Shown here piece after piece: positions 50,336 through 64,000 of a DNA stretch of 64,000 bases; within the stretch, counting starts at the first letter, position 1, and every line of letters begins with the position of its first letter. The stretch is from Nitrospirota bacterium (GTDB lineage Bacteria; Nitrospirota; Thermodesulfovibrionia; Thermodesulfovibrionales; Dissulfurispiraceae), in the NCBI GenBank assembly GCA_963790025.1, contig CAWBMP010000003.1:160001-224000 (forward strand), in the 5' to 3' direction. The notes below the pieces were generated by a model that saw nothing but the letters and a program-made list of their open reading frames with translations, was not told where the DNA came from and did not search any database. Both the position numbers and the translations under genes were made by a program.

Positions 50336-51150
50336 GCCGCGAGAAAGTTCTTTTCCTGACTTTTTTGCTGCTCTCTGGTGCATTAGTTTATAGTATGGGA
50401 AAAGACCCGCATTCATTCCCGCAGTCTGAATGTTTGAATTGCCATTCAGTGGACGCGTCCGGAACGGTCGCCAAACATACGAGGGAGCCTGTTACAATAG
50501 TCTGTAAAAAATGCCATGAAGACGTTTTTTCAAAAGGGTACATTCACCCCGTTAACGTCCGGCCCGGTTCTGTTAAAGTTCCCAGAGACATGCCGCTATC
50601 TGCATCCGGTGAAATCACTTGCAGCACATGCCATAATATGCACACGCCGGGTCTTACGCCGTTCGGAACAAAATCATACTATCTGCGGCGCTTTGAATCC
50701 GGGAAAAAATTCTGCGAGGCGTGTCACAAGAGAGGGCCCGGAACAGAATCACACCAGGCGGCCCTTGGGGAGGCCCACTTCAGCGCAAAATATATTATTA
50801 CCGACCCTTCGCAAAAGCTAGATTCCATGTCGAAGGACTGCATCTCCTGCCACGACGGTTCATTCTCGTCATCGGTCATGGCCGCAGGGACGTGGCAGCA
50901 TGGCAGGGACTTCTTAAGGTTCGACAAGGGAGGGCATCCCATCGGTGTCGATTATGAAGAGGCAAGGACACGTAGAGGGTCGAAGTCGGACCTTAAGCCT
51001 ATCGGTGCGGTTGACCGTCGGCTGCGTTTTTTTAACGGCAGGGTCGGGTGCGGTACCTGTCACAATCCCTACTCGACAATAGAAAAACAACTTGTGATGA
51101 GCGACAGGGAAAGCAGGCTCTGCTTTTCATGCCATTCCATGGGGAGGTAG
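50332..51150 (+). CDS. heptaheme cytochrome c
   Basis: CLNCH, CKKCH, CSTCH, CEACH, CISCH, CGTCH, CFSCH; signal peptide. Confidence 0.9.
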   Translation: MSREKVLFLTFLLLSGALVYSMGKDPHSFPQSECLNCHSVDASGTVAKHTREPVTIVCKKCHEDVFSKGYIHPVNVRPGSVKVPRDMPLSASGEITCSTCHNMHTPGLTPFGTKSYYLRRFESGKKFCEACHKRGPGTESHQAALGEAHFSAKYIITDPSQKLDSMSKDCISCHDGSFSSSVMAAGTWQHGRDFLRFDKGGHPIGVDYEEARTRRGSKSDLKPIGAVDRRLRFFNGRVGCGTCHNPYSTIEKQLVMSDRESRLCFSCHSMGR

Positions 51151-51152
51151 CG

Positions 51153-51731
51153 ATGGACAAAGGATATAAAAGAAGGCATTATTTCATCAATAAGGATTTT
51201 CAGGGGAAATTCATTATACAGCTTCTGGCGATATCGTCTGTGGGCAGCATTTTTGCCGTATTGCTTTTCATTTTCTTTGCCAACAGGAAGATAGACAGCT
51301 TGCTCTATTCGATGATGATCCCCTCCTCCATATTCAGGGGCAATATCCTGCTGAAGGAGGCCCTTTGGGCCAATGGCATCGCAGTGGTCATCATTGCAAT
51401 CATATTTATGGCTGTCGTGAGGAGGATTTTAGGGAAAATTACCGGTCCTCTGCATGATATCAGGAACGGTATAGTAAATATCGGCAGCGGCAATCTGACG
51501 TCCAGGATTGTCCTGCGCAGTAAAGATGAATTCCAGGACTTTGCGGACGGAGTGAACAACCTAAGCACTGAGATCCATAGCAGGTTCTCCGCAATTGACA
51601 GGAGGGCGGAAAAGATCGCCGCACTGGCGGAAGAGCTTGGGAAGTTTGGTGATGCTGAAAGCGAACGCATTGCCGGTTTGATGAGGGAGATAAGCGAGCT
51701 CGATCAGGAAATAGGAGCGTTCAGGAAATGA
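51153..51731 (+). CDS. 2-TM HAMP-domain membrane protein without a signalling domain
   Basis: GGGGAGG RBS, RRHYFINKDFQ N-terminus, two TM helices, ITGPL...GNL...DEF HAMP. Confidence 0.8.
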   Translation: MDKGYKRRHYFINKDFQGKFIIQLLAISSVGSIFAVLLFIFFANRKIDSLLYSMMIPSSIFRGNILLKEALWANGIAVVIIAIIFMAVVRRILGKITGPLHDIRNGIVNIGSGNLTSRIVLRSKDEFQDFADGVNNLSTEIHSRFSAIDRRAEKIAALAEELGKFGDAESERIAGLMREISELDQEIGAFRK

Positions 51732-52147
51732 CTGCTGAAAAGTCAAAGGGCGCAGGGCACATGGCGGCAGTGTCATTTTTTCTGGTCTTTGCCTTTACCT
51801 TTTTCCCTGCAACCCTTTATGCGGTCCATGATACTATTGAGGCGATGCGGTGCCTCGATTGCCATTTACGGCTTCCTTTTGATGAAAACCGGGCGTACCT
51901 GTTCAATGAAGAAATTGCCGCGGTTTGCAATACATGCCATAAGCGTTTTGTGCATACACATCCTGTCGAAATCATTCCTTCGATGTCGATTCCCCCTGAT
52001 ATGCCGCTTGACGGCAAAGGGAGGATGACCTGTATAACCTGCCACTTATTTCATAGCCGCGATATCCCTGCGGACGGGGAAAAGACATTTCTTCTGAGAC
52101 ACGAAAATGGAAAAACGTTTTGCTGCATCTGCCATACGAAATTGTAA
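51728..52147 (+). CDS. small tetraheme cytochrome c
   Basis: CLDCH, CNTCH, CITCH, CCICH; signal peptide. Confidence 0.88.
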   Translation: MTAEKSKGAGHMAAVSFFLVFAFTFFPATLYAVHDTIEAMRCLDCHLRLPFDENRAYLFNEEIAAVCNTCHKRFVHTHPVEIIPSMSIPPDMPLDGKGRMTCITCHLFHSRDIPADGEKTFLLRHENGKTFCCICHTKL

Positions 52148-52178: not shown

Positions 52179-52705
52179 GCGCTCATATCAACCTTATGTT
52201 GCTAGTTGGAAGAGCTGATAGCTACTCCTGTTACTGCGCCGGTTGTCACCGGAACAGTGGCCGCCGGGTTTGCAAATGTATACCCCGACTTGGTCACCGT
52301 AATAGTATAGGTGCCTGGCACTACGTTTGTGAAGGTGAAGGCCCCACTGGCGTTGGTGCTGGTGATACCCTTGGTCACGCCACTGAGCTTAAGGGTAAGA
52401 GATGCTGCCGAAAGCGGGGTGCCCGCCAGGTTAGTCACTGTGCCGCTGACCGTGTATTTGGCCGGCACCGTTACTGTCTGGCTGGAGGTTGCACTTATGC
52501 CTGAAACAGTAGCCGTGTCAATAATATTAAAGGTGTTGTTTGTAGTATAGGTGTGGGTAAACACACCGCCTGCACTGCCTGTTGAAAGACCAGTGCCGTC
52601 ACCCCAGTTGATGGATACCGAGGAACCTGAGGTTGAGCTGTCTGTCAGGGTAACGGTCGAGCCGGTTACACTGAGAGCAAAGTTGTCGGTGGGCGGGATG
52701 TTCAC
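52146..52705. repeat. ~560-bp near-identical direct repeat, copy A (terminator plus C-terminal domains)
   Basis: Matches 54833-55392 at offset 2687, with about 15 mismatches by eye. Confidence 0.92.
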
Positions 52706-54763
52706 TGTTACGGCTTTAGTTATCGATTCGGGCCGTAGTTCTGCACCGTTGGTGTTTGTGACGGTCAGAGTAACAGAATAGGGATTTACACCGAAGGATG
52801 CAGAGGTATAGCTATGGTTGATCTTGATGCTGTTGCTGTTGTCGGTTGCGCCGTCCCCAAAGACCCAACTATAGGTACAGATGCCGCCGACAGGGCAGAC
52901 AGTAGATGAGGCATCGAAGCTGACGGTATTGGTGCTGCCTGACTGCGCCCAGGTAAAGTTAGGCGTCGGGAAAGTAAGGTGGATGTTGTTTGCATCTCCC
53001 GCAAGCTCGATCTTTGCTTTGTATGGAGCATTGCTTTGCGTAGGATTCATGGTTACGACAGCATTATTTACCGTTGATCCCGCAGCATCGACCAGCGTGA
53101 TTGTATTGCCCGATACCGCAGCTATGTACGTGAAAAGATCGGCTCCTCCACCCCCGGCCCCGGCTATCTTGATCCTTTGTCCTTCGCCAAGACCTGTTCC
53201 GTTGGCAACGGTTAGAGTGACAGGGTTAGAAAGCGTCAGGGAGCCGTTCGTAGTAATCTGAGCTGTCCCGCCTCCGTGGCACTGACCGCAGGCCAGATCC
53301 AAATCCACCCAAACCGAATTCTTGCCGGGAAACGTGCTGCCGTCATCAGCAGTGTTGGGAAATATCTGCCCTCCGTTAAATTGGGAGGGTGCAGGGAAAG
53401 TAGTATAGGCTGCACTGACACTGATCCTGAAGAGGTGCAATCTGACAGCTTTGCCGTTGTTGGGCCTCACCATGTGGCAGACTTCGCACGAATTACTGTA
53501 AAGCGACGTATCAAACGGTGTGCCGGCCGACTGCGGATGGGCGGTATTGGACACAACGATTTCAGTATGACAAACGTCACATGTGACCAGTATCGGCTGG
53601 GCGCCGGTTGCAGCCTTGACAGCATCCACAGTCGATTGGTGCGGGTCATGGCATGCAGCAGTACAGCCCAGATTGTTATAGCCGTCATTGAACTGGCTGG
53701 CATAGTAAGCCGGATTGTTTATCTGACCGGTGTTTGTCAGTCCGTTGTTGTTCTGTCCTGCAGTGCCGGAGAACCTGCCATGCGGGCTGTTCAGAAACTC
53801 CTGGGTCACCGGGTAGCCGGCAAAAGCAGGCACATACACCCCATTATTGCCGACAGGCAGGTAGAGAGCAGGAGAAAAGTTGTTGGGTGTTGCAGGGTTG
53901 CCGGCCATATCAACGGTATTCTGGCCGGGCGGGTTCTGGTGGCAGTTATAGCAAAGCGCTGTACCGTCCTGGTTTGAGGGGCCGGGGGCGAAATCGACAT
54001 CATCGCCCGAGTATTGCGGCGTCACATCATGACAGCGTGTACAGGTAACTCCGTCAAACACCCATGAATTGCCCGTATAGCCAATCTGAGAAGAGACGGT
54101 AGGACCGGGCTGAGCAGCTGTCAGCAATAAAGGGTCCGGGTTGGATTTCAGAATGCCCGGCCTCGGGTTGTAGAGAAAGGTATTGGCTACAGTGATATTG
54201 TTGGTGGGGCTATTGTATGGAACGAAGGCAGTTGCCGTAACTGCGCCATAGCCTGTAGTGTGGCACTTTGCACACGTATACCCGCTTCCTGGTTGTGTAC
54301 CCTGTGAGTTCAGATATGATCCGTAGATAACATTTGGATTGGCAGCCGTTGACATCCAATCGCCATAAATATAATATAGCGGGGCTTTTGACCCGTCAGC
54401 CATGGTAAGCAATCCATTAAAAAAGTCTATTGCCCTCCCCGACGTGTCGGTCTGATATACCTGCCCGCCTGCCCCTACCCAGTATGCTGCCGACACGCCT
54501 GCCGTGACCTTACGCAGCACGTTCTTGTGTCCTGTCAGGAGATAGCCGGTTTTGTCCGAATCAGGCATTATGTTAGGATTATGGCAGGCCAAACATTGTT
54601 TGTTTGCAGCAGAGGCTTGCGACCAATCCCATCCGCCGTTGCCGTTCGGAACGGCGCCGTCGCCTACGAATGACCACGCCCCGGCAGTGTGAGGCAACAT
54701 AAGAAGCAACAGTGTGAATGCAATCAGCAATAATAGAACATAAGCACTGGTTTTTCGAATCAT
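52202..54763 (-). CDS. secreted octaheme cytochrome c (7 CxxCH, 1 CX3CH) with PKD and carboxypeptidase-regulatory-like C-terminal domains
   Basis: Signal peptide, GAGGAGG RBS, heme motifs, W.FGDG and WGDG PKD motifs, G.F.F..V.PGTY.I.V.K.GY tail. Confidence 0.85.
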   Translation of the reverse strand: MIRKTSAYVLLLLIAFTLLLLMLPHTAGAWSFVGDGAVPNGNGGWDWSQASAANKQCLACHNPNIMPDSDKTGYLLTGHKNVLRKVTAGVSAAYWVGAGGQVYQTDTSGRAIDFFNGLLTMADGSKAPLYYIYGDWMSTAANPNVIYGSYLNSQGTQPGSGYTCAKCHTTGYGAVTATAFVPYNSPTNNITVANTFLYNPRPGILKSNPDPLLLTAAQPGPTVSSQIGYTGNSWVFDGVTCTRCHDVTPQYSGDDVDFAPGPSNQDGTALCYNCHQNPPGQNTVDMAGNPATPNNFSPALYLPVGNNGVYVPAFAGYPVTQEFLNSPHGRFSGTAGQNNNGLTNTGQINNPAYYASQFNDGYNNLGCTAACHDPHQSTVDAVKAATGAQPILVTCDVCHTEIVVSNTAHPQSAGTPFDTSLYSNSCEVCHMVRPNNGKAVRLHLFRISVSAAYTTFPAPSQFNGGQIFPNTADDGSTFPGKNSVWVDLDLACGQCHGGGTAQITTNGSLTLSNPVTLTVANGTGLGEGQRIKIAGAGGGGADLFTYIAAVSGNTITLVDAAGSTVNNAVVTMNPTQSNAPYKAKIELAGDANNIHLTFPTPNFTWAQSGSTNTVSFDASSTVCPVGGICTYSWVFGDGATDNSNSIKINHSYTSASFGVNPYSVTLTVTNTNGAELRPESITKAVTVNIPPTDNFALSVTGSTVTLTDSSTSGSSVSINWGDGTGLSTGSAGGVFTHTYTTNNTFNIIDTATVSGISATSSQTVTVPAKYTVSGTVTNLAGTPLSAASLTLKLSGVTKGITSTNASGAFTFTNVVPGTYTITVTKSGYTFANPAATVPVTTGAVTGVAISSSN

Positions 54764-54832
54764 TCGGGTAACCCTCCTCGAACGTTTTACGAAGTATCGC
54801 GTTGTCGAACTTTGCTCACTATTCCAGTATGC

Positions 54833-54866
54833 AAAAAGGCAGGCGGGACGTCCCGCCTGCCTTTTG
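54833..54866 (-). terminator. intrinsic terminator after the large octaheme gene
   Basis: Perfect stem AAAAGGCAGGCGGGAC/GTCCCGCCTGCCTTTT. Confidence 0.8.
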
Positions 54867-55392
54867 CGCTCATATCAACCTTGTGTTGCTAGTTGGAAGA
54901 GCTGATAGCTACTCCTGTTACTGCGCCGGTTGTCACCGGAACAGTGGCCGCCGGGTTTGCAAATGTATACCCCGACTTGGTCACCGTAATAGTATAGGTG
55001 CCTGGCACTACGTTTGTGAAGGTGAAGGCCCCACTGGCGTTGGTGCTGGTGATACCCTTGGTCACGCCACTGAGCTTAAGGGTAAGAGATGCTGCCGAAA
55101 GCGGGGTGCCAGCCAGGTTAGTCACTGTGCCGCTGACCGCGTATTTGGCCGGCACCGTTACCTTCTGGCTGGAGGTTGCGCTTATGCCCGAAACAGTAGC
55201 GGTGTCAACAATCGTAAAGGTGTTGTTTGTAGTATAGGTGTGGGTAAACACACCGCCTGCACTGCCTGTTGAAAGACCGGTGCCGTCACCCCAGTTGATG
55301 GATACCGAGGAACCTGAGGTTGAGCTGTCTGTCAGGGTAACGGTCGAGCCGGTTACACTGAGAGCAAAGTTGTCGGTGGGAGCGATGTTCAC
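54833..55392. repeat. ~560-bp near-identical direct repeat, copy B
   Basis: Matches 52146-52705. Confidence 0.92.
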
Positions 55393-58389
55393 AGCCACCG
55401 TGCTGGTCTGGAAATCGTACATTTCATTAGTCGTGTCGTAAACCATCAGCTGAACAGTGTACTGATTGGAACCGACGGTTGGAGTGAACACATGCTGACC
55501 TGAAGTGCTGGTATTAAGGATGCTTGTGTTGTTGGCACCGCTTGCGGGATCACCGAAATTCCAGTCGTACACACAGTTGCCGCTAGGACAGGTCGCGGAA
55601 GAGGCATCGAAGTTTACTGTACCGGTCTTGTCCTGTGTCTGCTGCCAGGTGAATTGGGCTGCAGGAGTACCACTGTGCATGTTCCTTGCGTCTGCTGCCA
55701 GCTCAGTTTTGGATTTGTAAGGAGCATTATTGGTGACGTAATTGGATCCGAAGCTTCCGCCGTGGCACTGGCCGCAAGCCATATCAAGGTCGACCCAGAC
55801 AGCATTGTTATATAACACTGTGGCATCTTTCTTGAATTCCGGTGCGGTTTGTGCGTCTCTATCCATCAGGGTTCCGGCGGGCAAGGCACTCCATGTGCCG
55901 CTGTTCGCGGTACAATTGGCGGAACTGGTATCAGACTGGTACACAACAGGTAAACTCGGAGCATTCTGGACCGGACCGGCATGTACGCTGCACGTTCCGT
56001 TGTAGAACTGGCCCGTTGTCGGGAAGGTACTGTAAGTTGAACTTGAATTGATTCTCCATACATGGACCGGCATCGAATTCTGATTGCCGTTTGCCAAGGC
56101 CTGTGTAGCCATGTGGCAGACTTCGCACGAACCATTGGGATAGAGAGTGGTATCGAACGGAGTACCGGGAGTCTGAGGATGATTAAACGATGCTACCTGC
56201 GGTGTAGCAGTGTCGGTAGCGCCGGTCGAAGCATTGTTCACGTGGCAATCTGCACACGTTTTTCTGATGGCCGCCCCTGCCTGGCTGTCTACAAAGAGGC
56301 TGTTGTGAACATCATGACAGGTGGTGCATGTACCCTGGTAGCCGGACTGAGTTGTGGCTCCACCTACATCATCTCTCCAAGCGTAGCCTGATATGGCAGT
56401 ACATTGTGCCTGGGTTGTAATCGGCGAGCCGTTGCTCTGGGTCGTTGCCAGACTGCTGCTGGTGCTGCCCTGGAAGCAGGAGTAGCCTTTGAATATACTG
56501 TTATATTCTGCTGCCACGGCTGTGCCTGCAGAATCATAAAGATCATTTTCACCAAGGGGGTTCGGCGTAATGGAGCCGTTGCCGGTCTGTGCGCCGAGGT
56601 ATCTGGCATGAACGCTGTTCAGGAACGAGTTGCCGAGAACATGGCCGTTGAAGTCGCGGCCTGCTGCTGCCCCGTGGCTGACACCTGTCGGGATTATTGT
56701 CGGATCAAACTGTGATGTTCCGCTTGTTGAACCGCCCTCGGCTGGATACAACTTTGCGATACTCTGGTGGCAGCCGAAGCAGAGATTATTCCTGCCTACT
56801 CCATCAGCGAGATTGCCCATTCCACTACTTGTAGGATATGTTGAAGGGAAGGACGATGCGGCAATCTGAGCCGCAGTTACCGAAGGAACAGTTGCATTGT
56901 GACATCTTGAGCAGTTGATGCCTTCGAGGTCCCAAGCATAGCCGGCTTTAACAGCACTGGCATAACCTGCGCCGGCGGCAGTGGGCTGTTGCCCAACGTA
57001 TCCAGGGGTGCCGACTGACTGCACACCTGGTGTTGCGGCAGTGCCGCCACTAAAGCCGGTCGAATGGCAGTTTGCACAACTGTAATTGCTGCCTGCAATA
57101 GCAACGCTCGGAAGCGCAGCCATCCAGTCACCATAGATGTAATACATAGGATTCGAGCCGTCCAAAGCACTTCCGGCGGCCCCAAGAACTCCAAATGTCA
57201 TCGCATTTGTGCCGTCGGTAGTATAAACAACGCCGTTAGCACCTGCCCACGCGAGGCCGGGTGTGACCTTCCTCAGCATGTTTTTATGGCCGGTCTGAAG
57301 ATACGAATCTTTGTATCTGTTGAACGGGCCGTTATACTGCACTAAAGTGCTGTGGCAGTGGAGACAACCATTATCGCCATTTACAGCCTGCTGGGTGAGG
57401 TCAAAAACGACACCCTTGGTAATGGAGGTATCAACAAGCGTAACCTGATATCCCGGACCCATGGGAATCCAGTTGGACCAGGAGCCGCCATTTGCAAGAC
57501 ATGCTCCCTGGGTGGTAAGAGTGCTCAGATCAACAGTTGCGCCTGCTGCTGCGGTTACTCCGCCGATTACGGCAGTACTTCCAGTTACAGCCGTTAAGGC
57601 ACTGTTAAGCGGTCCGGCGACACCATAAGCATAAACGCAGTTGCCTGAGCTAACAGACCAACCAAATGATGTCGTGGCGTTGGTGCTTGTGGATGGGCAG
57701 GTCGATGAAGTGTAACCAGTCGCTCTCATACTTGTATAGCAGAAACCTGTGTTGGACGCTTGAGTGGTACCTTGCGCCCCAAAAGTCAGAGGATTTCCGC
57801 TGCCATCCTGTCCCCTGAACTGCCAGCCATAGGCTATACACATGGCCGAAGTGCCGTTAGCTTTATTGTTGACGCCCGTGGCATTGGCTAATACGCCCCC
57901 CAAGGCATTACACATTTGAGAGTCCCTGTCCAGGTTCTTCAAAGAAATGCCGGTTAGAATGTTCCCGCTTCCATCAATTGTCACGCAGGTGCTGCTGCCC
58001 GGTGCGGCATACTTGAGGCCTGATGTGTTGCTTCCTGTCTTTCCGCATACATTGGCCAAAGTGTCGTTGGAAGTGATCGCAGTCACGGAAACAAGCCTCG
58101 CATCGCAATCTCTCTTGGTGAGAATAGTAGGATCAGTAACCATATTGCCGCTAGCGTCTATGCTGAGAACGCATATGCCGTCACTGGGTGCTATCCAGTT
58201 GCTGAATGTAACACCACCAGTTGTCCCGTTAGCATTAGTAGCGGTAAGATGTATGCCGTCAGCGGCTACCACACCATTCTGAACCGCACCGTCACTTTGG
58301 TACATTGCCCCGGCATTTCCTATCATCATAAATGAAGAAATGACAAGGGCAACGATCGACATGAGAATCATCAAACGTTTTTGCTTCAT
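54889..58389 (-). CDS. large secreted octaheme cytochrome c with Cys-rich N-terminal region, PKD and carboxypeptidase-regulatory-like domains
   Basis: CLHCH, CANCH, CSRCH, CFGCH, CTTCH, CADCH, CEVCH, CGQCH; paralog of 52202-54763 (shared TGHKN.LRKVT, YYIYGDWM, VWVDLD.ACGQCHGG). Confidence 0.87.
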   Translation of the reverse strand: MKQKRLMILMSIVALVISSFMMIGNAGAMYQSDGAVQNGVVAADGIHLTATNANGTTGGVTFSNWIAPSDGICVLSIDASGNMVTDPTILTKRDCDARLVSVTAITSNDTLANVCGKTGSNTSGLKYAAPGSSTCVTIDGSGNILTGISLKNLDRDSQMCNALGGVLANATGVNNKANGTSAMCIAYGWQFRGQDGSGNPLTFGAQGTTQASNTGFCYTSMRATGYTSSTCPSTSTNATTSFGWSVSSGNCVYAYGVAGPLNSALTAVTGSTAVIGGVTAAAGATVDLSTLTTQGACLANGGSWSNWIPMGPGYQVTLVDTSITKGVVFDLTQQAVNGDNGCLHCHSTLVQYNGPFNRYKDSYLQTGHKNMLRKVTPGLAWAGANGVVYTTDGTNAMTFGVLGAAGSALDGSNPMYYIYGDWMAALPSVAIAGSNYSCANCHSTGFSGGTAATPGVQSVGTPGYVGQQPTAAGAGYASAVKAGYAWDLEGINCSRCHNATVPSVTAAQIAASSFPSTYPTSSGMGNLADGVGRNNLCFGCHQSIAKLYPAEGGSTSGTSQFDPTIIPTGVSHGAAAGRDFNGHVLGNSFLNSVHARYLGAQTGNGSITPNPLGENDLYDSAGTAVAAEYNSIFKGYSCFQGSTSSSLATTQSNGSPITTQAQCTAISGYAWRDDVGGATTQSGYQGTCTTCHDVHNSLFVDSQAGAAIRKTCADCHVNNASTGATDTATPQVASFNHPQTPGTPFDTTLYPNGSCEVCHMATQALANGNQNSMPVHVWRINSSSTYSTFPTTGQFYNGTCSVHAGPVQNAPSLPVVYQSDTSSANCTANSGTWSALPAGTLMDRDAQTAPEFKKDATVLYNNAVWVDLDMACGQCHGGSFGSNYVTNNAPYKSKTELAADARNMHSGTPAAQFTWQQTQDKTGTVNFDASSATCPSGNCVYDWNFGDPASGANNTSILNTSTSGQHVFTPTVGSNQYTVQLMVYDTTNEMYDFQTSTVAVNIAPTDNFALSVTGSTVTLTDSSTSGSSVSINWGDGTGLSTGSAGGVFTHTYTTNNTFTIVDTATVSGISATSSQKVTVPAKYAVSGTVTNLAGTPLSAASLTLKLSGVTKGITSTNASGAFTFTNVVPGTYTITVTKSGYTFANPAATVPVTTGAVTGVAISSSN

Positions 58390-58571
58390 TAAAGCCCCCT
58401 TTTAAATAGGTATTTATACGCAAGTCATATGCAACGCATTGCCTTCTATTTGTTCACTACGTCTTCTCTTTTGAACGACACTCTGTCTTCTGCGATCACC
58501 TCCTCGTTATTCCAATGCTGCCATGTGGTAATCCTGCTACGCGGTAAAAAATTTGGGGGTACAATATGATT

Positions 58572-58587
58572 AGCATAAACTGTACCA
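58572..58587 (-). promoter_or_regulatory. sigma54 (-24/-12) promoter for the octaheme genes
   Basis: Minus strand TGGTACAGTTTATGCT, GG-N10-GC spacing. Confidence 0.65.
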
Positions 58588-58973
58588 AGCCATTGAAATG
58601 ACATATCCAACAGGGGAGCTTTGCTATAACTTATTATTATAAAAGGAGGATTTGTAGATAGTCCGACCGGGGTCCTAATAATGGGTGCACCTTTCCGGCA
58701 GCGCGTAATTGGTGAAATAGCGAGGTCGGGTACAGCAATTTCACGGAAAACGAAAAAGGCAAAGGGTGTCAGGCCAAAACCTGAGGACTGAAGGGCGGCA
58801 GAAAGAACGGCCGCGCTTCATTTTTATATAGAAGACGTCCCAGAAAACTTTTAAGGACGTTCCGCGTTTTCACCGGAAGCTCCGGCCATATCACCAGTCT
58901 TTTTGCTGTTGTGATGCACTTCAATTCCGGATTTTTCCTTATTTTAAAACGAGATAGCTATGGTTAATGATTG

Positions 58974-58989
58974 TGGCACACAGCTTGCT
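58974..58989 (+). promoter_or_regulatory. sigma54 (-24/-12) promoter for the omcE-like gene
   Basis: TGGCACACAGCTTGCT, near-consensus. Confidence 0.8.
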
Positions 58990-59155
58990 TCTACAAAGGA
59001 TAAGATTTCGGAGATTACCTGCCGGTAAAAAGTTTTAGGAAGTGCCCTTTCTTTAGATGGGGGTCCGAAGAGGGGCGAGAGAAAATCTGCTTTAAGCAGA
59101 ATGAAATCAGCAGGAACTGTAAGACTAAAAAATACTGATCTAGGAGGAATTAGCA

Positions 59156-60010
59156 ATGAAGAAACAATTGGTTTTAGTGCTGGCACTGATGCTGGCGATG
59201 TTTTTGGTAGGTAATGCATATGGTTATACGCCCGGCGCAGGTATTAAGACAAGCCCGCATGACCTCAGTAAGGCAGGCGGCAGCATAGGCAAGCCCTACG
59301 GCGGGGCAACTGAACAGGCCGGCCTGGACAGAATTTGCGTGTACTGCCATGCCCCTCACCATACGATAAAGCCAAGCGATGCGTCAACTTTAGCTTATAG
59401 TTATGTGCCGCTATGGAACCATGATTTAACCACACAGACATTTACTATGTATACAAACAATTCTGGTAATGTCTCTGGTGATCCTACCCGCCAGGCTCCC
59501 GGCTCCGGCGGTCAGGTGAATAATCTTGCGGCTACTGCGGGGAGCCCCTCAACGCTTTGCCTCAGCTGCCACGATGGAACAGTAGCAACTGACGCATACG
59601 GCAACGGAGGCGGTCCCAGCAGTTCAGGCTACGGCAGCTACAACTGGTCGCCTTCCAAAAGTTCCGGCACCCAGTTCATCCAGAATAACGCATACCAGAT
59701 CGGCGCAGGCGGAGACCTTAGCAATCATCATCCCATCGGATTCGACTATATCAAAGCATACAATAACAGCCAGAGCAGCCAAAACGGAGATTACGCACTT
59801 GCGAACATCAGCACACCCATGGGAACCGGCAGGACAATAGGCCAGCTTCTGTGGAATGCAACATGGAATACTAATAGGACGACTCAGACGGGCGGCACTA
59901 TGGAGTGCACCACATGCCATTCCGTGCACAACAAGGCCAACACCGGCCAGAGACTCCTGTGGGTAGAAGACACAAACAGCGCCTTCTGTATGACCTGTCA
60001 CCTTAAATAA
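59156..60010 (+). CDS. omcE: OmcE-like tetraheme extracellular cytochrome (nanowire-type)
   Basis: Ordered motifs HDLS, ICVYCHAPH, PLWN, TFTMY, LCLSCHDG, DLSNHHPIGF, ECTTCHSVH, FCMTCH match my recollection of the Geobacter OmcE pattern; AGGAGG RBS; signal peptide. Confidence 0.8.
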   Translation: MKKQLVLVLALMLAMFLVGNAYGYTPGAGIKTSPHDLSKAGGSIGKPYGGATEQAGLDRICVYCHAPHHTIKPSDASTLAYSYVPLWNHDLTTQTFTMYTNNSGNVSGDPTRQAPGSGGQVNNLAATAGSPSTLCLSCHDGTVATDAYGNGGGPSSSGYGSYNWSPSKSSGTQFIQNNAYQIGAGGDLSNHHPIGFDYIKAYNNSQSSQNGDYALANISTPMGTGRTIGQLLWNATWNTNRTTQTGGTMECTTCHSVHNKANTGQRLLWVEDTNSAFCMTCHLK

Positions 60011-60029
60011 GTTTCATCTCTATTCGTAC

Positions 60030-60065
60030 AAAAAGGGGGGGATGGTCAGCCATTCCCCCCTTTTT
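60030..60065 (+). terminator. intrinsic terminator after the omcE-like gene
   Basis: AAAAAGGGGGGGATGG-TCAG-CCATTCCCCCCTTTTT. Confidence 0.8.
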
Positions 60066-60266
60066 AATGGAAAAACAAAAGGAAGTATCTGAGTGTCTGA
60101 GCATCAAAGCAGGGTCTTCAAAAGTCTTTTACTTTAATGCTGTGACACTCTGATACTCTGACACTTCCTTCTGGTGGTTAAATGATAAAACTGTCAGTTA
60201 TGTGGTATTCTAAAATTGTTTCTCCCTGCTATGGAAGAGAACGATATTACGTAAAGAGGTGTTGTA

Positions 60267-61454
60267 ATGAAAAAGCTGTTTATTTTCTGCACAGCATTTG
60301 TGTTTGCCGTGGCGGTCGGTTGCGCCATGCCCGAGAAAAAAGAGGAAACCAAGGTTTTCTACCCGGAACCTCCTGAATTGCCACGCATTCAGTTTCTCGC
60401 GTCGTTTACAGGGTCAAAGGACATTGAGCCCGAGAAGTCGGCCCTGGATGTCTTTCTGACCGGCAAGGAATCGGGCAGACTCCTGCAAAAGCCGTATGGA
60501 GTTGCCATTTACAATGGGAAGATGTATGTCTGCGACACAATGCAGGGCGTTATGATCTTCGATTTTCAGAAGAGGATGTTAAGGCCCCTGCAGGGCGACC
60601 GCGGGCCCGGCAAGCTGGTGCAGCCGATCAACATCAGCATAGACAGGGCCGGAAATAAATATGTGGCCGACCCTGCCCGCGGACAGGTGGTTGAATACGA
60701 TAAGGACGATTTCTACGTAAGGGCGATCGGGACGCCCGGCGGGTGGAGGCCGGTGGATGCCGCAGTATACGAGGACAGCGTTTATGTGGCCGATATAAAA
60801 AACGCCGAAATAAAGGTGTTTGACAGAGAGACCGGAGCTCCCGTCCGGCAGTTCGGCCAGACAGGAGAACCGAAAGACCGTCTGTCGCTGCCGGCCAACA
60901 TCGCATTTGACCCTGAAGGAGACCTCTATGTTTCGGACATAGGGAGATTTCAGATCGTAAAGTTCGACCGGGACGGCCATGTCAGGGGGACGTTCGGTGA
61001 GCTCGGCTCCGAAGCGGGGCACTTTGCCCGGCCCAAGGGAATCTCTGTCGACCGGAACGGCAATCTGTATGCGGTAGATTCCGCATTCGACGTGGTGCAG
61101 ATGTTCGATAAAGATGCGCATCTCCTGCTTTTCTTCGGCAAGGCTGGGACAGGTCCGGGCGACCTCCAGCTCCCCGCAAAGGTCACTGTGGATTACGACA
61201 ACGTAAAGTATTTTGCAAACTATGCAGACCCAAAGTTCGATATCCAACATATAATTATCGTGACGAACCAGATGGGCGACCGCATGGTCAATGTGTATGC
61301 TTTCGGCAAAGAGAAGGGGAAGAAATACCCCAGCAATGAGGAATTGGAAGCACAGGTAAAAGAGAAGTTCGACAAGCTCAGGAAAGAGCAAGAGGGAAAA
61401 AACAAAGGCAAGGCGGAGGAAGGAACAGACGAGGGCACAAAAAAGTCCGAATAA
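60267..61454 (+). CDS. NHL-repeat beta-propeller lipoprotein
   Basis: Lipobox AVGC; P.PPELPRIQF N-terminus; repeated P..I..D..G..YV.D blades. Confidence 0.88.
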   Translation: MKKLFIFCTAFVFAVAVGCAMPEKKEETKVFYPEPPELPRIQFLASFTGSKDIEPEKSALDVFLTGKESGRLLQKPYGVAIYNGKMYVCDTMQGVMIFDFQKRMLRPLQGDRGPGKLVQPINISIDRAGNKYVADPARGQVVEYDKDDFYVRAIGTPGGWRPVDAAVYEDSVYVADIKNAEIKVFDRETGAPVRQFGQTGEPKDRLSLPANIAFDPEGDLYVSDIGRFQIVKFDRDGHVRGTFGELGSEAGHFARPKGISVDRNGNLYAVDSAFDVVQMFDKDAHLLLFFGKAGTGPGDLQLPAKVTVDYDNVKYFANYADPKFDIQHIIIVTNQMGDRMVNVYAFGKEKGKKYPSNEELEAQVKEKFDKLRKEQEGKNKGKAEEGTDEGTKKSE

Positions 61455-61471
61455 CGGCAGTTTCAAGAACA

Positions 61472-62068
61472 ATGGCAATATGGACAAAAACGGTGTTGCT
61501 GCTCTTCCTTCTGCTCATTGCGGCGGGATGCTCCCGACAGCAAGTGTTGCCTGACCAGTCAGAAAACGTACCGAGCGCGACGAACGGACTATATCGCGTG
61601 TTGGGCTTTTTTATCGATGGATTGACACCGCCTGAAAAGGATAAAGACGCGGGGGGCAAAGTAAGCGCTGAAGCGCCGGGATCGAAGAAAGAGGCGCTAG
61701 GGTACAGGGAACATGGCCCCTATGCAGCTAACCTCTGCGGAGCTTGCCATGTACAGACCGGAAGCAATCAGCTTATTATGCCCGTTGAGGAGCTTTGCCA
61801 GAATTGCCACGTCTTGAATCTCAAAAAGAAAAAGGTCCACGGCCCGGTCGTGACAGGCGGGTGCAAAGTTTGCCATGATCCGCATGCCTCGCCGTACCGC
61901 TTTTTACTTGTGTCCGAATCGAAGGACTTTTGTTATTATTGCCACTCCCGGACGGATATCGAAAAAAGGGAGGTGCACAGGAAAACCGATGTTGGGTGTA
62001 CTTATTGTCACGAGGCCCACGCATCAGACAATGAATACTTGCTGCGAACAGAAGAGGTCGGGAAATGA
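61472..62068 (+). CDS. pentaheme lipoprotein cytochrome c
   Basis: Lipobox AAGC; CGACH, CQNCH, CKVCH, CYYCH, CTYCH. Confidence 0.88.
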   Translation: MAIWTKTVLLLFLLLIAAGCSRQQVLPDQSENVPSATNGLYRVLGFFIDGLTPPEKDKDAGGKVSAEAPGSKKEALGYREHGPYAANLCGACHVQTGSNQLIMPVEELCQNCHVLNLKKKKVHGPVVTGGCKVCHDPHASPYRFLLVSESKDFCYYCHSRTDIEKREVHRKTDVGCTYCHEAHASDNEYLLRTEEVGK

Positions 62069-64000
62069 AGCGCATACTGTGGCTTTTCTTTCTGACTGCG
62101 GCAGCGGTTGCGTCCCCCTCCGTTGCCATGTGCGACATGCAGCAGTTCATACCGAGGATCATAGATTACAGCGGGGAGTTCGACATCTATATGCTGCGTC
62201 AGGCAAACGACAATAAAACGACAAGTGCAAGGACATCGACAGTCGATACTTCCGCCATCGAACAGTTCAGGCTTTCTTCGGCCGGGTATATATACCACCC
62301 GGCATTAATAACGTTTCTCGCGAGCGGATCTTTTGGCCTGCTCCAGGACCAGTTCAAAAACAACGGTACTGCGGCTCCCTGGAGCAACACCGATGCCAAC
62401 GAGTATAACCTGACGCTTCATGTTCTCCCTGAAAAACAGTATTCCCTCGACCTGCTCACCTCGCGTTCGGAGCCTTTTGCGAGTACAGGAGCATTCACCA
62501 ATATTCGGCCGGTCACTTACGTCAACAGTGCGACTTTTTACTATCGTGGAAGTCCCATAAACTTTTCCACCGGCTACACCGATACCAGGACCGTATCTGA
62601 CACAACGACAGACTCACGCTTGCTCAACTTTCAGGCCCAACATGGCGTGCAGCACAGCTTCACTTCTGTCGGATATAGCCGCAGCGACAGCACATCCAGT
62701 GCGGGGACCGATTATTCCAGGGACTATTATCTCCTGTCTAATCAGCTGCAGTTCGAGCGGCTGCTCCTGCGCAGCGAGCTCAAGTATGATGACTATAATA
62801 ACAAAGACCTTTTTCAAACCACTGACGGCACCGACAACTCATGGACCGAATATCTGCACCTGAAACTTCCCTGGCGTTTCGAATCGGACCTCACTTACAG
62901 CCGGACATACAGCGATTCAAAGTCCGTGCCCATCGCCAACTCCGCTGCTTCGGCGCCGCAGAAGCAGTCCAATACGAACGATTCGCTCAATGAGGTTTTA
63001 TCGCATCGCCTCGGTGAGAGCCTGTTCACATCATACGCGTACAATGACACTACCAACAAATCTTCGGGTGGACAGTCCGACAACAATAGCAATTCGGTGA
63101 GTGTCTTATACACGAAAAAGATCCCCTGGGGAACATTTACAGCAGGGACCGGCTACACCGTTATGAAGACAGACAATATCGGGTCTGTCATTACGCTGAA
63201 CGAGGTACATACGTCAAAGGCCGATGGAATAGATTCCTTCACCCTGCAGCCCGGCTTGATCGACCCTGCTACGATCGTTGTAGATCTCGTCGCACCCGGG
63301 ACCGGGATCATCTATCCGTTGGTCAATAACGTAAATTACCTGATCGACCATATCGGCAATACGTTCAGGATCACGGTCCAGTCGTTCTTTCTCTTCCCTG
63401 TCCCCGGGTTTACCCCCAATCCGGACATCAATTTTGCATACACCTATAATGTGACCTATAGAAGCACGCAGGGGACATTCGGCCTCCAGACAAACACCAT
63501 CGCCTACAACGCCGGTCTTGCGCTCTTCGCGAACCTTCTCAACCCATATTATAGCCATCAGCAGTCTGACCAGACCTTGGTGTCGGGTTTTTTTCCGGGA
63601 GAGTTATCGAGCTTTACAGTGGACACGGAGGGCATCGTGGTCCAGAAAGCGCCTTTCAGGCTTTCGACAGAATACCAGAAGTATGACTCCGCAAGCAACC
63701 CGAGCAGGACCTGGAGGTCGCGGTTCGACTTCTGGGAGAACATGATGCGCTCGCTGTCCCTTTCGGCAGGGGTTTTCTATAACAAGAGCAACTTTTTGCA
63801 GAGCCAGTCCGGTGCCGGACTGACAAGCCCTTATTCCCAAACAGTGCGCGGGGTGAATGTCTCTGTACAGAAAATATTCCCATGGAACCTGAACCTATCG
63901 GGATCAGGCTATTTTGCGCAAACGACCGGACGCACCGAGTCAAACAACTATTCACTGAACGGGGTGCTAACATGGCGGGTGGGCAGGCTGTCTGTTGATT
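62065..64000 (+). CDS. large outer-membrane beta-barrel protein (porin of porin-cytochrome type), partial
   Basis: Manual translation, absent from the ORF track because it has no stop in the window: MKRILWLFFLTAAAVASP signal, GYIYHP, Ser/Thr/Tyr-rich amphipathic strands, ends ...LTWRVGRLSVD; ATGA-coupled to the pentaheme gene. Confidence 0.75.
   Translation, partial: MKRILWLFFLTAAAVASPSVAMCDMQQFIPRIIDYSGEFDIYMLRQANDNKTTSARTSTVDTSAIEQFRLSSAGYIYHPALITFLASGSFGLLQDQFKNNGTAAPWSNTDANEYNLTLHVLPEKQYSLDLLTSRSEPFASTGAFTNIRPVTYVNSATFYYRGSPINFSTGYTDTRTVSDTTTDSRLLNFQAQHGVQHSFTSVGYSRSDSTSSAGTDYSRDYYLLSNQLQFERLLLRSELKYDDYNNKDLFQTTDGTDNSWTEYLHLKLPWRFESDLTYSRTYSDSKSVPIANSAASAPQKQSNTNDSLNEVLSHRLGESLFTSYAYNDTTNKSSGGQSDNNSNSVSVLYTKKIPWGTFTAGTGYTVMKTDNIGSVITLNEVHTSKADGIDSFTLQPGLIDPATIVVDLVAPGTGIIYPLVNNVNYLIDHIGNTFRITVQSFFLFPVPGFTPNPDINFAYTYNVTYRSTQGTFGLQTNTIAYNAGLALFANLLNPYYSHQQSDQTLVSGFFPGELSSFTVDTEGIVVQKAPFRLSTEYQKYDSASNPSRTWRSRFDFWENMMRSLSLSAGVFYNKSNFLQSQSGAGLTSPYSQTVRGVNVSVQKIFPWNLNLSGSGYFAQTTGRTESNNYSLNGVLTWRVGRLSVD

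What the first reader, a model, noticed from the sequence alone, without database searches (positions are those of the whole stretch)
59156..64000. OmcE-type cytochrome nanowire gene coupled to an NHL lipoprotein, pentaheme lipoprotein and porin, apparently outside Geobacter
Seen: a tetraheme protein with the OmcE motif order, its own sigma54 promoter, a strong RBS and its own terminator (the layout of an abundant structural subunit), followed by an NHL propeller lipoprotein, a pentaheme lipoprotein and a >640-aa beta-barrel. Known: Geobacter sulfurreducens OmcE polymerises into conductive filaments and is encoded beside an NHL-repeat gene and cytochromes; porin-cytochrome complexes carry electrons across the outer membrane. 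Inference: this organism, probably a Nitrospirota-like anaerobe, encodes a nanowire plus the conduit or assembly apparatus that anchors it.
Basis: partly seen in the sequence, partly recalled or inferred. Interest (0 to 1): 0.85.

Follow-up and report, generated by a model that had tools for sequence, protein, structure and literature searches.

The report
OmcE-type cytochrome nanowire cluster, Nitrospirota
A sulfur-metabolising Nitrospirota bacterium carries a complete copy of the gene set that Geobacter relatives use to build conductive OmcE "cytochrome nanowires" and wire them through the outer membrane, but this kind of cluster, and its presence in this phylum, is already in print.

Summary

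The 284-aa tetrahaem protein is a true OmcE relative. The G. sulfurreducens OmcE filament (7TFS) is its best match by sequence (E 1.3e-13, end to end) and by fold (Z 10.5). All four CxxCH motifs and all four distal histidines are kept.

The genome is Nitrospirota (Dissulfurispiraceae-like), not Geobacterales. The cluster runs about 5 kb past the window. It adds a SurA-like prolyl isomerase, a second NHL lipoprotein and a 12-haem cytochrome.

The same seven genes in the same order occur in 15 of 18 Nitrospirota loci examined. Parts of the set occur in 21 named phyla. It matches the published omcE minimal cluster (mBio 2026, which lists Nitrospirota) and the uet cluster (bioRxiv 2022). This scan has met it before on other DNA (49 notes).

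Verdict: a new member of a known kind.

Filament formation itself remains an inference.

One point may be new. The conserved 12-haem cytochrome has an N-terminal OmcE-like head, also in Geobacter, which makes it an in-cluster candidate for the filament's base or cap.

The parts
58974..58989 (+). sigma-54 -24/-12 promoter element (TGGCAC-N5-TTGCT) of the OmcE-like gene
   Evidence: Sequence. Only exact match in the window, 0.11 expected. One of 4 in the genome. rpoN present. Element conserved upstream of orthologues in 16 of 18 Nitrospirota loci.
59142..59147 (+). Shine-Dalgarno AGGAGG, 8 nt before the ATG
   Evidence: Read.
59156..60010 (+). OmcE-family tetrahaem cytochrome (P0001, 284 aa), the presumed secreted filament subunit
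   Evidence: PDB by sequence: 7tfs_A E 1.3e-13 end to end, 9yuq_N E 1.5e-8. Foldseek: 7tfs is the only significant hit, E 1.2e-5. VIA-align: Z 10.5, rmsd 3.5 A, 182 of 202 residues. Four CxxCH plus H35, H68, H192 and H258 conserved.
60030..60065 (+). intrinsic terminator hairpin with T-run directly after the subunit gene
   Evidence: dG -30 kcal/mol, z -4.9. A similar hairpin in 13 of 15 Nitrospirota cassettes.
60267..61454 (+). NHL six-bladed beta-propeller lipoprotein 1 (P0002, 395 aa)
   Evidence: Pfam NHL E 4.1e-11. PDB NHL propellers down to E 3e-31. Lipobox by eye. Orthologue sits next to the OmcE-like gene in 67 of 79 loci from other genomes.
61472..62068 (+). pentahaem lipoprotein cytochrome (P0003, 198 aa)
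   Evidence: Five CxxCH. Paired_CXXCH_1 E 3.2e-24. Only PDB hit is chain A of the Mtr complex entry 6r2q, E 8.1e-6. Lipobox by eye.
62065..64000 (+). large outer-membrane protein, presumed beta-barrel (P0124). The full gene is 678 aa and ends 101 nt beyond the window.
   Evidence: Full ORF. Signal peptide; C-terminal ...RRQLF, and 10 of the 13 other positional orthologues printed also end in an aromatic residue. No Pfam or NCBIfam family. No PDB relative by profile. Positional orthologue of the 'large beta-barrel' of the published omcE cluster.
52202..58389 (-). two paralogous giant secreted multihaem cytochromes (853 and 1166 aa) with PKD and CarboxypepD_reg domains, transcribed divergently. 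They lie in the same accessory island but are not part of the conserved cassette.
   Evidence: Pfam. 7(+1) and 8 haem motifs; 165 of the last 190 residues identical. No DNA match in the same-genus genome.
48399..52144 (+). further island genes: 13-haem cytochrome, 194-aa protein without family, 7-haem cytochrome, HAMP protein, 4-haem cytochrome
   Evidence: Pfam and NCBIfam. Motif counts. No DNA match in the same-genus genome.

Best explanation
This is the left half of an omcE/uet-type extracellular electron-transfer gene cluster in a Dissulfurispiraceae-like Nitrospirota genome.

The cassette has seven genes:
- an OmcE-family tetrahaem subunit
- NHL propeller lipoprotein 1
- a pentahaem lipoprotein
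- a 678-aa outer-membrane barrel
- a SurA-like prolyl isomerase
- NHL propeller lipoprotein 2
- a 12-haem cytochrome with an OmcE-like N-terminal head

Proposed working (inferred):
1. A sigma-54 promoter, driven by a nearby enhancer-binding response regulator and its kinase, transcribes the subunit gene strongly. A terminator lets only part of the transcripts run on into the apparatus genes.
2. The subunit is exported by Sec and receives its haems in the periplasm.
3. It passes through or docks on the barrel. The propeller lipoproteins and the prolyl isomerase act as scaffold and chaperone.
4. Outside the cell it polymerises head to tail. One conserved histidine of each subunit ligates a haem of its neighbour, giving a continuous haem chain.
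5. The lipoprotein cytochrome, the 12-haem cytochrome and the neighbouring c7-type cytochromes carry electrons between periplasm and filament.

Shown: homology, conserved ligands, conserved gene order, conserved promoter and terminator, taxonomy, accessory-island status.
Inferred: polymerisation, localisation of each part, direction of electron flow.

My odds: membership of the omcE/uet cluster kind about 0.9; that the subunit forms a filament about 0.55-0.6.
For: Subunit.
- OmcE filament 7tfs_A is the best PDB hit by sequence, E 1.3e-13 over query 16-284 and chain 14-232. Next is D. soudanensis OmcE 9yuq_N at 1.5e-8.
- The AF2 model (pLDDT 70.1) hits only 7tfs significantly in Foldseek.
- Against 48,161 PDB representatives 7tfs_A stands alone at Z 10.5. 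The next is the OmcS nanowire at Z 3.5.
- In 60 aligned relatives H35, H192, H258 and three of the four CxxCH are invariant; H68 and C61 are at 90% or more.
- In 92 stand-alone modules all 16 haem-ligand positions are kept in at least 90.
- These are the features PMC13712944 names as conserved: four CxxCH and four other His.

Cluster.
- Gene content.
- It equals the published minimal omcE cluster of two multihaem cytochromes, two propeller lipoproteins, OmcE and a large barrel.
- It also matches the uet parts list of tetrahaem, prolyl isomerase, barrel, c7 trihaems, two NHL proteins and an undecahaem.
- The same seven genes in the same order occur in 15 of 18 Nitrospirota loci.
- OmcE-like, NHL1, NHL2 and the large cytochrome occur together in 31 of 79 loci from other genomes, in 11 named phyla including Geobacter and Geomonas.

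Regulation.
- Sigma-54 element.
- A sigma-54 activator plus kinase lie 3.6 kb downstream.
- Activator homologues occur in 11 of 18 Nitrospirota loci.
- Terminator.

Context.
- 10 of the genome's 22 ORFs with four or more CxxCH lie in this 24.6-kb stretch.

Taxonomy.
Against: - Identity to solved OmcE is only 26-31%.
- The model is of middling confidence. Residues 44-50, 116-124 and 153-165 fall under pLDDT 50. These are G/S/T/N-rich insertions absent from OmcE, which is 232 aa against 284 here.
- Filaments have been shown only for three Desulfuromonadia (PMC13712944, abstract and discussion).
- The authors of that paper state that tetrahaem OmcE-like genes are widespread and not all need polymerise.
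- The uet authors proposed electron uptake and left open whether UetA is a monomer or a polymer.
- The barrel has no detectable relative of known structure, and I could not model it.
- The cluster was not found in the same-genus genome, which is 98% complete. It is therefore accessory, not core physiology.
Confidence: 0.75

Rival explanations
1. Porin-cytochrome conduit without a filament. The tetrahaem protein is a monomeric surface cap, UetA-like, sitting on a barrel-embedded multihaem cytochrome in the manner of MtrC on MtrAB. The propellers stabilise the complex.
For: - The uet model places UetA and UetJ at the surface and allows one of them to be the trans-membrane conduit.
- Deng et al. 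2018 read NHL propellers as stabilisers of outer-membrane cytochrome complexes.
- The peat preprint models its four EET clusters, among them the acidobacterial 'porin-scaffold-cytochrome' EET1, as Mtr-like conduits.
- The pentahaem lipoprotein's only PDB hit is chain A of the Mtr complex entry 6r2q.
- Polymerisation was not tested here.
Against: - The histidine that I take (inference, not tested) to be the one donated to the neighbour is H35, the equivalent of the His in OmcE's N-terminal KHDLS. It is kept in 91 of 92 stand-alone modules and is invariant in 60 aligned relatives.
- A dedicated strong promoter, a strong RBS and a terminator around the subunit gene alone are conserved in Nitrospirota. 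This fits a protein made in large excess over the apparatus.
- The best structural match by far is a filament subunit.
Confidence: 0.3
2. The same apparatus is used mainly for electron uptake from minerals, cathodes or partner cells, not for electron export.
For: - The uet cluster was defined in a cathode-oxidising electroautotroph and was expressed according to electrode potential.
- It is also listed among iron-oxidiser conduits in Gallionella.
- Haem chains are reversible in principle (general knowledge).
- The host has dsrA. Its named relatives are Dissulfurispira-type sulfur metabolisers (the lifestyle is recalled, not tested).
Against: - Nothing in the sequence sets a direction.
- In Geobacter and Desulfuromonas, OmcE is linked to Fe(III) oxide and electrode reduction.
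- No oxidase or carbon-fixation linkage was looked for here.
Confidence: 0.3
3. An ordinary periplasmic cytochrome operon that only resembles OmcE through shared CxxCH motifs.
For: Pfam and NCBIfam give only generic multihaem domain hits for the subunit.
Against: - The alignment to OmcE is end to end and includes the non-motif His and other blocks such as PLWN, DG and HP-x-F.
- 7tfs is singled out among 48,161 chains.
- Synteny with lipoproteins and an outer-membrane protein holds across many phyla.
Confidence: 0.03

Closest known systems
omcE nanowire gene cluster of Desulfuromonadia. Includes the G. sulfurreducens OmcE filament (PDB 7TFS) and the D. soudanensis WTL OmcE bundles (PDB 9YUQ). 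Source: Petersen et al., mBio 2026, PMC13712944; abstract and sections 7, 8, 9 and 12 read.
   Same: - Tetrahaem subunit with the same four CxxCH and four distal His.
- The same minimal gene set: two multihaem cytochromes, two propeller lipoproteins, the subunit and a large barrel.
- The same gene order as in Geobacter sp. locus L043.
- The paper already lists Nitrospirota among five phyla with such clusters.
   Different: - 26-31% identity to OmcE.
- The subunit is about 50 aa longer, with G/S/T/N-rich insertions and seven N-x-S/T sequons.
- No glycosylation gene block was seen among the ORFs I scanned.
- A SurA-like prolyl isomerase lies inside the cassette. It is constant in the Nitrospirota loci. 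It was hit in only 3 of the 79 loci from other genomes (L006, L051, L081).
- Sigma-54 control.
- The cluster lies in a roughly 22-kb accessory island with other large cytochromes.
- Filament not demonstrated.
uet (undecahaem electron transfer) cluster of 'Ca. Tenderia electrophaga'. Source: Eddie et al., bioRxiv 10.1101/2022.05.06.490989; abstract and passages read.
   Same: The parts list matches: tetrahaem UetA, prolyl isomerase UetB, barrel UetC, c7-type trihaem proteins UetD/E/G, two NHL proteins UetH/I and undecahaem UetJ. Here two cytochromes, each with two c7 'nanowire_3heme' domains, lie just downstream.
   Different: - Gene order differs.
- No cupredoxin (UetF) was seen among the ORFs scanned.
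- I compared composition only, not Tenderia sequences.
- That system is proposed for electron uptake in an aerobe.
- No paper in the searched library holds both 'UetJ' and 'OmcE'.
Acidobacteriota 'EET1' porin-scaffold-cytochrome cluster. Source: bioRxiv 10.64898/2026.05.27.727921; section 9 and passages read.
   Same: A conserved porin plus scaffold plus multihaem cytochrome architecture with 'OmcE-like' cytochromes. Two Acidobacteriota loci in my set carry the four-part core (L005 and L051), and L005 also has the small cytochrome and the barrel.
   Different: I could not see their figures or accessions, so identity of EET1 with this cassette is likely but not checked. They model it as an Mtr-like conduit, not a filament.
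MtrCAB / Pcc porin-cytochrome conduits of Shewanella and Geobacter
   Same: The logic is the same: an outer-membrane barrel plus periplasmic and surface multihaem cytochromes. There is weak sequence likeness of the small and large cytochromes to chain A of the Mtr complex entry 6r2q.
   Different: - The barrel profile finds no PDB chain at all at E up to 10.
- Two NHL lipoproteins and an OmcE-family protein are not part of Mtr or Pcc systems.
OmcS nanowire and its companion genes
   Same: A secreted cytochrome polymer with inter-subunit His ligation (review PMC12307469, passages). PMC13712944 cites a hypothesis of porin-like mounting aided by other proteins. OmcS is the second structural match, at Z 3.5.
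   Different: No sequence relationship. OmcS has six haems. I did not read the paper on the companion genes.

Membership tests
OmcE cytochrome-nanowire subunit family | Four CxxCH motifs in OmcE order, alignable end to end with OmcE | tested here: met
   7tfs_A E 1.3e-13, query 16-284 against chain 14-232. Motifs at C61, C135, C251 and C278.
OmcE cytochrome-nanowire subunit family | Four further conserved histidines that complete bis-His ligation, one of them given to the neighbouring subunit | tested here: met
   H35, H68, H192 and H258 align with OmcE His. They are invariant or at 90% or more in 60 relatives and kept in 91-92 of 92 stand-alone modules. Which His is the inter-subunit one was not tested.
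OmcE cytochrome-nanowire subunit family | OmcE fold | tested here: met
   Foldseek: 7tfs E 1.2e-5, prob 1.00, TMt 0.56. VIA-align: Z 10.5, rmsd 3.5 A, 182 of 202 residues. Caveat: the model has pLDDT 70.1 and no haems.
OmcE cytochrome-nanowire subunit family | Head-to-tail polymerisation into an extracellular filament | not testable with these tools
No RNA or protein data. Needs microscopy.
OmcE cytochrome-nanowire subunit family | Large beta-barrel gene and beta-propeller lipoprotein gene nearby. This is the filter Petersen et al. used for 'potentially nanowire-forming' homologues. | tested here: met
   NHL lipoprotein and the 678-aa outer-membrane protein lie directly downstream. Filter quoted.
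omcE minimal gene cluster (PMC13712944, section 8) | Two multihaem cytochromes, two propeller lipoproteins, the OmcE subunit and a large barrel | tested here: met
   All six are present, plus a prolyl isomerase. Orthology to the Geobacter and Geomonas loci by phmmer.
uet cluster (Eddie et al. 2022) | UetA-J parts: tetrahaem, prolyl isomerase, barrel, c7 trihaems, cupredoxin, two NHL proteins, undecahaem | tested here: inconclusive
   Every part except the cupredoxin has a counterpart by domain content. No Tenderia sequence was compared.
Mtr/Pcc porin-cytochrome complexes | Barrel homologous to MtrB/PioB-type porins, with a decahaem MtrA-type partner | tested here: inconclusive
   The barrel profile A2 gave 0 PDB hits at E up to 10. 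There are only weak local likenesses of the cytochromes to 6r2q chain A. No structure of the barrel could be predicted.
sigma-54-dependent promoter | GG-N10-GC core in a TGGCAC-N5-TTGCW context, rpoN and an activator in the genome | tested here: met
   Transcription start not tested.

The most novel reading that the evidence does not exclude
The conserved roughly 600-aa, 12-haem cytochrome of the cassette (P0127, the UetJ counterpart) is not just a feeder cytochrome. Its N-terminal 200 residues are a complete OmcE-type module that co-polymerises with the OmcE-like subunit. The protein would then be the filament's base or cap, and its eight-haem tail would plug the haem chain into the barrel and the periplasm.

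Petersen et al. write that no OmcE-like anchor or tip candidate appears in omcE operons.

Here the family profile matches OmcE at E 2e-48 over the whole OmcE chain. In a Geobacter sp. cluster the head matches OmcE better (6.6e-29) than that cluster's own OmcE-like gene does (9.6e-16).

All 16 haem-ligand positions are kept in 40 of 40 heads. The residue after the N-terminal His differs by class: Asn in 36 of 40 heads, Asp in 87 of 92 subunits.

The 32 aligned orthologues keep 12 haem motifs and exactly 12 invariant non-motif His.

In the best tree the heads lie on one side of a branch, but support is only 35.8.

Probability: 0.3. Interest if true: 0.65.

Novelty: new member of a known kind. 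Interest (0 to 1): 0.3.

Why it matters
It adds a well-assembled example (five contigs, 98.8% complete) of the OmcE-type apparatus in a sulfur-metabolising Nitrospirota lineage. There, electron exchange with iron minerals or partner cells would link the sulfur and iron cycles.

The comparative data gathered here show three things.
- The cassette, with its sigma-54 promoter and its terminator after the subunit gene, is a stable unit in four Nitrospirota families.
- It is accessory: it was not found in the sister species.
- Its components occur in many more phyla than the five named in print.

The more useful lead is general and not specific to this window. Every cluster examined encodes a large cytochrome with an OmcE-like head. 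This makes the open question of how nanowires are anchored, started or capped testable by deleting or tagging one gene in Geobacter.

Tried and rejected
- Oligomer test: complex prediction for the subunit with the head of the 12-haem cytochrome (plus haems) was unavailable. No oligomer test was done.
Strand number and pore size are therefore unknown.
- Crude strand count: an alternating-hydrophobicity count gave 26 segments. It is not reliable and is not used.
- Barrel by profile and Atlas: the profile found no PDB hit at E up to 10. The ESM Atlas gave only unnamed clusters at 0.98-0.99, and porin families only below 0.9.
- Expression: no RNA holder is listed for the locus. Only small-share DNA holders were found, and none were laid.
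- Rfam on 58300-60300: nothing near a gathering score.
- Activator site: repeat search of the promoter region gave only short repeats. The inverted repeat at 58712-58744 is a possible activator site, but this is unsupported.
- Kinship of named loci to this genome is not reported by the tool. Taxonomy was taken from valyl-tRNA synthetase hits instead.
- Papers not readable: the original OmcE paper (PMC9357133) is not held. The supplement of PMC13712944 could not be read. I therefore could not see which Nitrospirota sequence they used, nor which His is the inter-subunit ligand.
- Giant upstream cytochromes: no PDB relatives beyond their C-terminal beta-sandwich domain.
- Tree of modules: the split between heads and subunits is in the best tree but has SH-aLRT of only 35.8. 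A single origin is neither shown nor rejected.
- Reading as a plain periplasmic cytochrome operon: rejected (see rivals).

Full report
**What is in the sequence**

| Window position | Product | Key evidence |
|---|---|---|
| 59156-60010 (+) | 284-aa protein, signal peptide, four CxxCH at C61, C135, C251, C278 | |
| 60267-61454 (+) | 395-aa NHL-repeat protein, lipobox-like N-terminus | Pfam NHL E 4.1e-11, |
| 61472-62068 (+) | 198-aa protein, lipobox-like N-terminus, five CxxCH | |
| 62065 to window end (+) | runs off the window; 678 aa in the genome, ends ...RIRRQLF | |

The regulatory signals are real.
- TGGCACacagcTTGCT at 58974-58989 is the only exact match to TGGCAC-N5-TTGCW in the window, with 0.11 expected.
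- It is one of four such sites in the 3.45-Mb genome.
- rpoN is present.
- AGGAGG lies 8 nt before the ATG.
- The hairpin at 60030-60065 folds at -30 kcal/mol (z -4.9) and is followed by UUUUU.

**What the first gene is**

By sequence, the best solved relative of the 284-aa protein is chain 7tfs_A, E 1.3e-13, aligned over query 16-284 and chain 14-232. The next is 9yuq_N at E 1.5e-8. 7TFS is titled 'Cryo-EM of the OmcE nanowires from Geobacter sulfurreducens'. 9YUQ is the Desulfuromonas soudanensis OmcE bundle.

An AlphaFold2 model built on 60 relatives has pLDDT 70.1 and carries no haems.
- In Foldseek it hits only 7tfs significantly: E 1.2e-5, prob 1.00.
- In an all-against-all alignment to 48,161 PDB representatives, 7tfs_A stands alone at Z 10.5 (rmsd 3.5 A, 182 of 202 residues, 31% identity).
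- The next is the OmcS nanowire at Z 3.5.

In the 60-sequence alignment H35, H192, H258 and three CxxCH are invariant, and H68 and C61 are at 90% or more. In 92 stand-alone modules taken from genome loci, all 16 haem-ligand positions are kept in at least 90. Petersen et al. name these same features as conserved among OmcE homologues (PMC13712944, section 7).

The family is large.
- 1076 proteins at E up to 0.001 among 2703 candidates in the word-indexed search.
- 2329 cluster representatives at E up to 0.001, 574 at 1e-10 and 45 at 1e-30 in the exhaustive search.

**Taxonomy**

The valyl-tRNA synthetase of the window (27367-30276) finds as best named relatives:
- proteins labelled Nitrospirae/Nitrospirota bacterium (83%)
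- Dissulfurispiraceae bacterium (80-81%)
- Dissulfurispira thermophila (68%)

That family lies in Thermodesulfovibrionales, Nitrospirota. The closest named homologue of the OmcE-like protein itself (76%) is also labelled Dissulfurispiraceae. dsrA is present above its curated cut-off. The genome is therefore not Geobacterales.

**The whole cluster**

The window ends inside the fourth gene. Positions past 64000 are given as window-equivalent coordinates read from the genome.

| Position | Strand | Product | Evidence |
|---|---|---|---|
| to 64101 | + | barrel | |
| 64154-65209 | + | 351-aa SurA_N plus rotamase protein | |
| 65240-66274 | + | second NHL lipoprotein, NHL E 5.8e-24 | |
| 66271-68070 | + | 599-aa cytochrome, 11 CxxCH and one CxxxCH | |
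| 68078-68866 | + | 262-aa protein, nearest Atlas clusters named 'NrfJ family' at 0.96 (a lead only) | |

On the other strand follow:
- a cytochrome with two c7 'nanowire_3heme' domains
- a TPR protein
- a 106-aa ORF
- a second double-c7 cytochrome
- a response regulator with a sigma-54 activator domain
- a HAMP-PAS histidine kinase

The set of subunit, two propeller lipoproteins, two multihaem cytochromes and a large barrel equals the minimal omcE cluster of Desulfuromonadia (PMC13712944, section 8).

With the prolyl isomerase and the c7 cytochromes it also matches the parts list of the uet cluster of 'Ca. Tenderia electrophaga' (Eddie et al., bioRxiv 2022). That cluster has also been reported in Gallionella (PMC10734462).

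**Conservation**

A pattern scan of one genome per species found 524 stretches encoding relatives. The best 80 were kept as 79 loci, from 21 named phyla. I searched their ORFs with the eight proteins of this locus.
- 67 of 79 have an NHL gene beside the OmcE-like gene.
- 31 of 79 hold OmcE-like, NHL1, NHL2 and the large cytochrome within the DNA fetched, in 11 named phyla. These include Geobacter sp. (L043) and Geomonas (L047).
- Many loci are cut by contig ends, so these are lower bounds.

In the window's own phylum, 77 of 401 sampled genomes (G000 included) match the subunit at E up to 1e-10. Many of these matches fall in long ORFs and are probably heads of the large cytochrome. Seventeen other genomes match at E up to 1e-38.

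I fetched 19 regions and scanned 18 of them, from 16 genomes in four family codes. The 2.7-kb contig L093 was left out.
- 15 of 18 carry all seven genes in the same order, prolyl isomerase included.
- One is cut by a contig end.
- Two are lone second copies in genomes that also have a full cassette.
- A relaxed sigma-54 element lies upstream of the subunit gene in 16 of these 18 loci, against a background of 0.059 per 600 nt. The two without it are the lone copies.
- A GC-rich hairpin plus T-run follows the subunit gene in 13 of the 15 cassettes.
- A homologue of the sigma-54 activator lies within the fetched DNA in 11 of 18, often next to the large cytochrome gene.
- Outside the phylum the sigma-54 element is less common: 16 of 82 genes with enough upstream DNA, against a background of 0.037.

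**Accessory island**

The one other sampled genome of the same genus (G326, 98% complete) has no match to:
- the subunit at 1e-10
- the 12-haem cytochrome at 1e-5
- the barrel profile at 1e-5

The cytochrome query did find its orthologue in 4 of 4 other genomes.

At the DNA level G326 keeps the block from the 106-aa ORF through the second c7 cytochrome, activator, kinase and two further genes at 80-87% identity. Within about 1 kb of that block it has matches to the response-regulator gene of window 47471-48148, at 68-74% and in inverted orientation.

Nothing in G326 matches window-equivalent 48150-70358. So about 22 kb is present here and not found in the sister species. This stretch holds five further cytochromes, the seven-gene cassette, the NrfJ-like gene, one c7 cytochrome and the TPR gene.

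Ten of the genome's 22 ORFs with four or more CxxCH lie between 48000 and 72600.

**The large cytochrome has an OmcE-like head**

Residues 25-231 of the 599-aa protein match OmcE better than the subunit does: 7tfs_A E 4e-23, and 9yuq_N E 3.5e-18 to the end of that chain. The subunit and this head align over 272 columns at 26% identity, E 1e-15.

A profile of 32 orthologues matches 7tfs_A at 2e-48 over chain residues 9-232 and 9yuq_N at 5.5e-40. The rest of the protein finds only generic multihaem relatives: OcwA at 6.9e-11, 6r2q chain A and 6qvm.

In the Geobacter sp. locus the orthologue's head scores 6.6e-29 against OmcE, while that locus's own OmcE-like gene scores 9.6e-16.

The 32 orthologues are 36-52% identical to P0127. 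They keep 12 haem motifs and exactly 12 invariant non-motif histidines.

All 16 haem-ligand positions of the OmcE module are kept in 40 of 40 heads. The residue after the N-terminal His is Asn in 36 of 40 heads but Asp in 87 of 92 stand-alone subunits.

In a quick maximum-likelihood tree of 133 modules:
- The 40 heads, plus one apparently split gene, form one side of a branch, but SH-aLRT is only 35.8.
- They lie inside a well-supported set of 57 (support 99).
- The label needs 2 changes, against about 34 when shuffled.

Petersen et al. state that no OmcE-like tip or anchor candidate appears in omcE operons (section 12). No paper in the searched library holds both 'UetJ' and 'OmcE'. This is the basis of my novel reading. 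It was not tested further because the complex predictor was unavailable.

**Mechanism and its limits**

I commit to the reading given under Best explanation. The promoter, RBS and terminator frame the subunit gene alone, as for major subunits of other surface fibres.

Polymerisation, localisation and the direction of electron flow are inferences.
- Identity to solved OmcE is low.
- The subunit carries long G/S/T/N-rich insertions that are poorly modelled, and seven N-x-S/T sequons.
- Filaments are proven only in three Desulfuromonadia.
- The barrel has no relative of known structure, and I could not model it.

**Novelty**

Three papers in the library hold both 'OmcE' and 'Nitrospirota'. One of them reports OmcE homologues with porin and propeller genes in that phylum.

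The uet cluster (2022) and the acidobacterial 'porin-scaffold-cytochrome' EET1 cluster (bioRxiv 10.64898/2026.05.27.727921, section 9) describe the same kind of apparatus. NHL propellers next to outer-membrane cytochromes were noted in 2018 (PMC5815863).

No paper holds 'Dissulfurispiraceae' with 'multiheme'.

This scan has already noted the cassette on other DNA: 49 notes in at least 44 genomes, Nitrospirota among them.

The locus is therefore a new member of a known kind. Its interest lies in the comparative details and in the general lead on the large cytochrome's head.

Noticed in passing
window 34562-45293: A type II secretion gene set lies 3-14 kb upstream of the cytochrome island. It comprises GspD secretin, GspM-like, PilM/PilN-like, GspK, pseudopilins, GspF, GspE and GspG. 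Parts of it are conserved in the same-genus genome at another place. A role in exporting the large secreted cytochromes is possible but untested.
   Followed up: partly
window 52202-54763 and 54889-58389 (- strand): Two paralogous secreted cytochromes of 853 and 1166 aa have 7(+1) and 8 haem motifs, a PKD domain in the 853-aa one, and a CarboxypepD_reg-like C-terminal domain. Their last 190 residues are 165/190 identical, which suggests recent duplication or gene conversion. There is no NCBIfam family and no PDB relative for the haem part.
   Followed up: partly
window 48399-52144: A 13-haem cytochrome (DmsE/MtrA-like by NCBIfam, below cut-off), a 194-aa protein with no family, a 7-haem cytochrome, a HAMP-domain protein and a 162-aa 4-haem cytochrome. 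Together with the cassette, 10 of the genome's 22 ORFs with four or more CxxCH sit in 24.6 kb.
   Followed up: partly
window-equivalent 48150-70358 (G000:C3:208150-230358): About 22 kb has no DNA match in the one same-genus genome sampled, although both flanks are kept there at 68-87% identity, the left one inverted. This is an accessory electron-transfer island. No mobile-element genes were looked for.
   Followed up: partly
L003 9078-9866 (window-equivalent 68078-68866): A 262-aa secreted protein lies after the 12-haem cytochrome and has no Pfam or NCBIfam family. The nearest ESM Atlas clusters are auto-named 'NrfJ family protein' at 0.96. Relatives lie near the cassette in two other loci, L049 and L062, but in none of the 18 Nitrospirota loci.
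   Followed up: partly
L003 9874-10662 and 11680-12519 (- strand): Two cytochromes each carry two c7-type 'nanowire_3heme' (TIGR04257) domains. They are the likely periplasmic feeders, like UetD/E/G. One lies inside the island. The other, together with the sigma-54 activator and kinase, is kept in the sister species, which lacks the cassette.
   Followed up: partly
window 59156-60010: The subunit has seven N-x-S/T sequons. Its mature part is 12.6% Gly, 11.5% Thr, 10.3% Ser and 8.0% Asn, concentrated in insertions relative to OmcE. G. sulfurreducens OmcE shows densities read as glycans. No glycosyltransferase genes were seen among the neighbouring ORFs scanned here.
   Followed up: no
window 58712-58744: The inverted repeat GTGAAATAGC / GCAATTTCAC lies about 230-260 nt upstream of the sigma-54 element. 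It is a possible activator binding site. It was not compared with orthologous promoters.
   Followed up: no
L105 15853-17000: In one Nitrospirota cassette the second NHL gene is split into two ORFs, a possible frameshift or assembly error. In locus L051 the large cytochrome appears split after its OmcE-like head.
   Followed up: no
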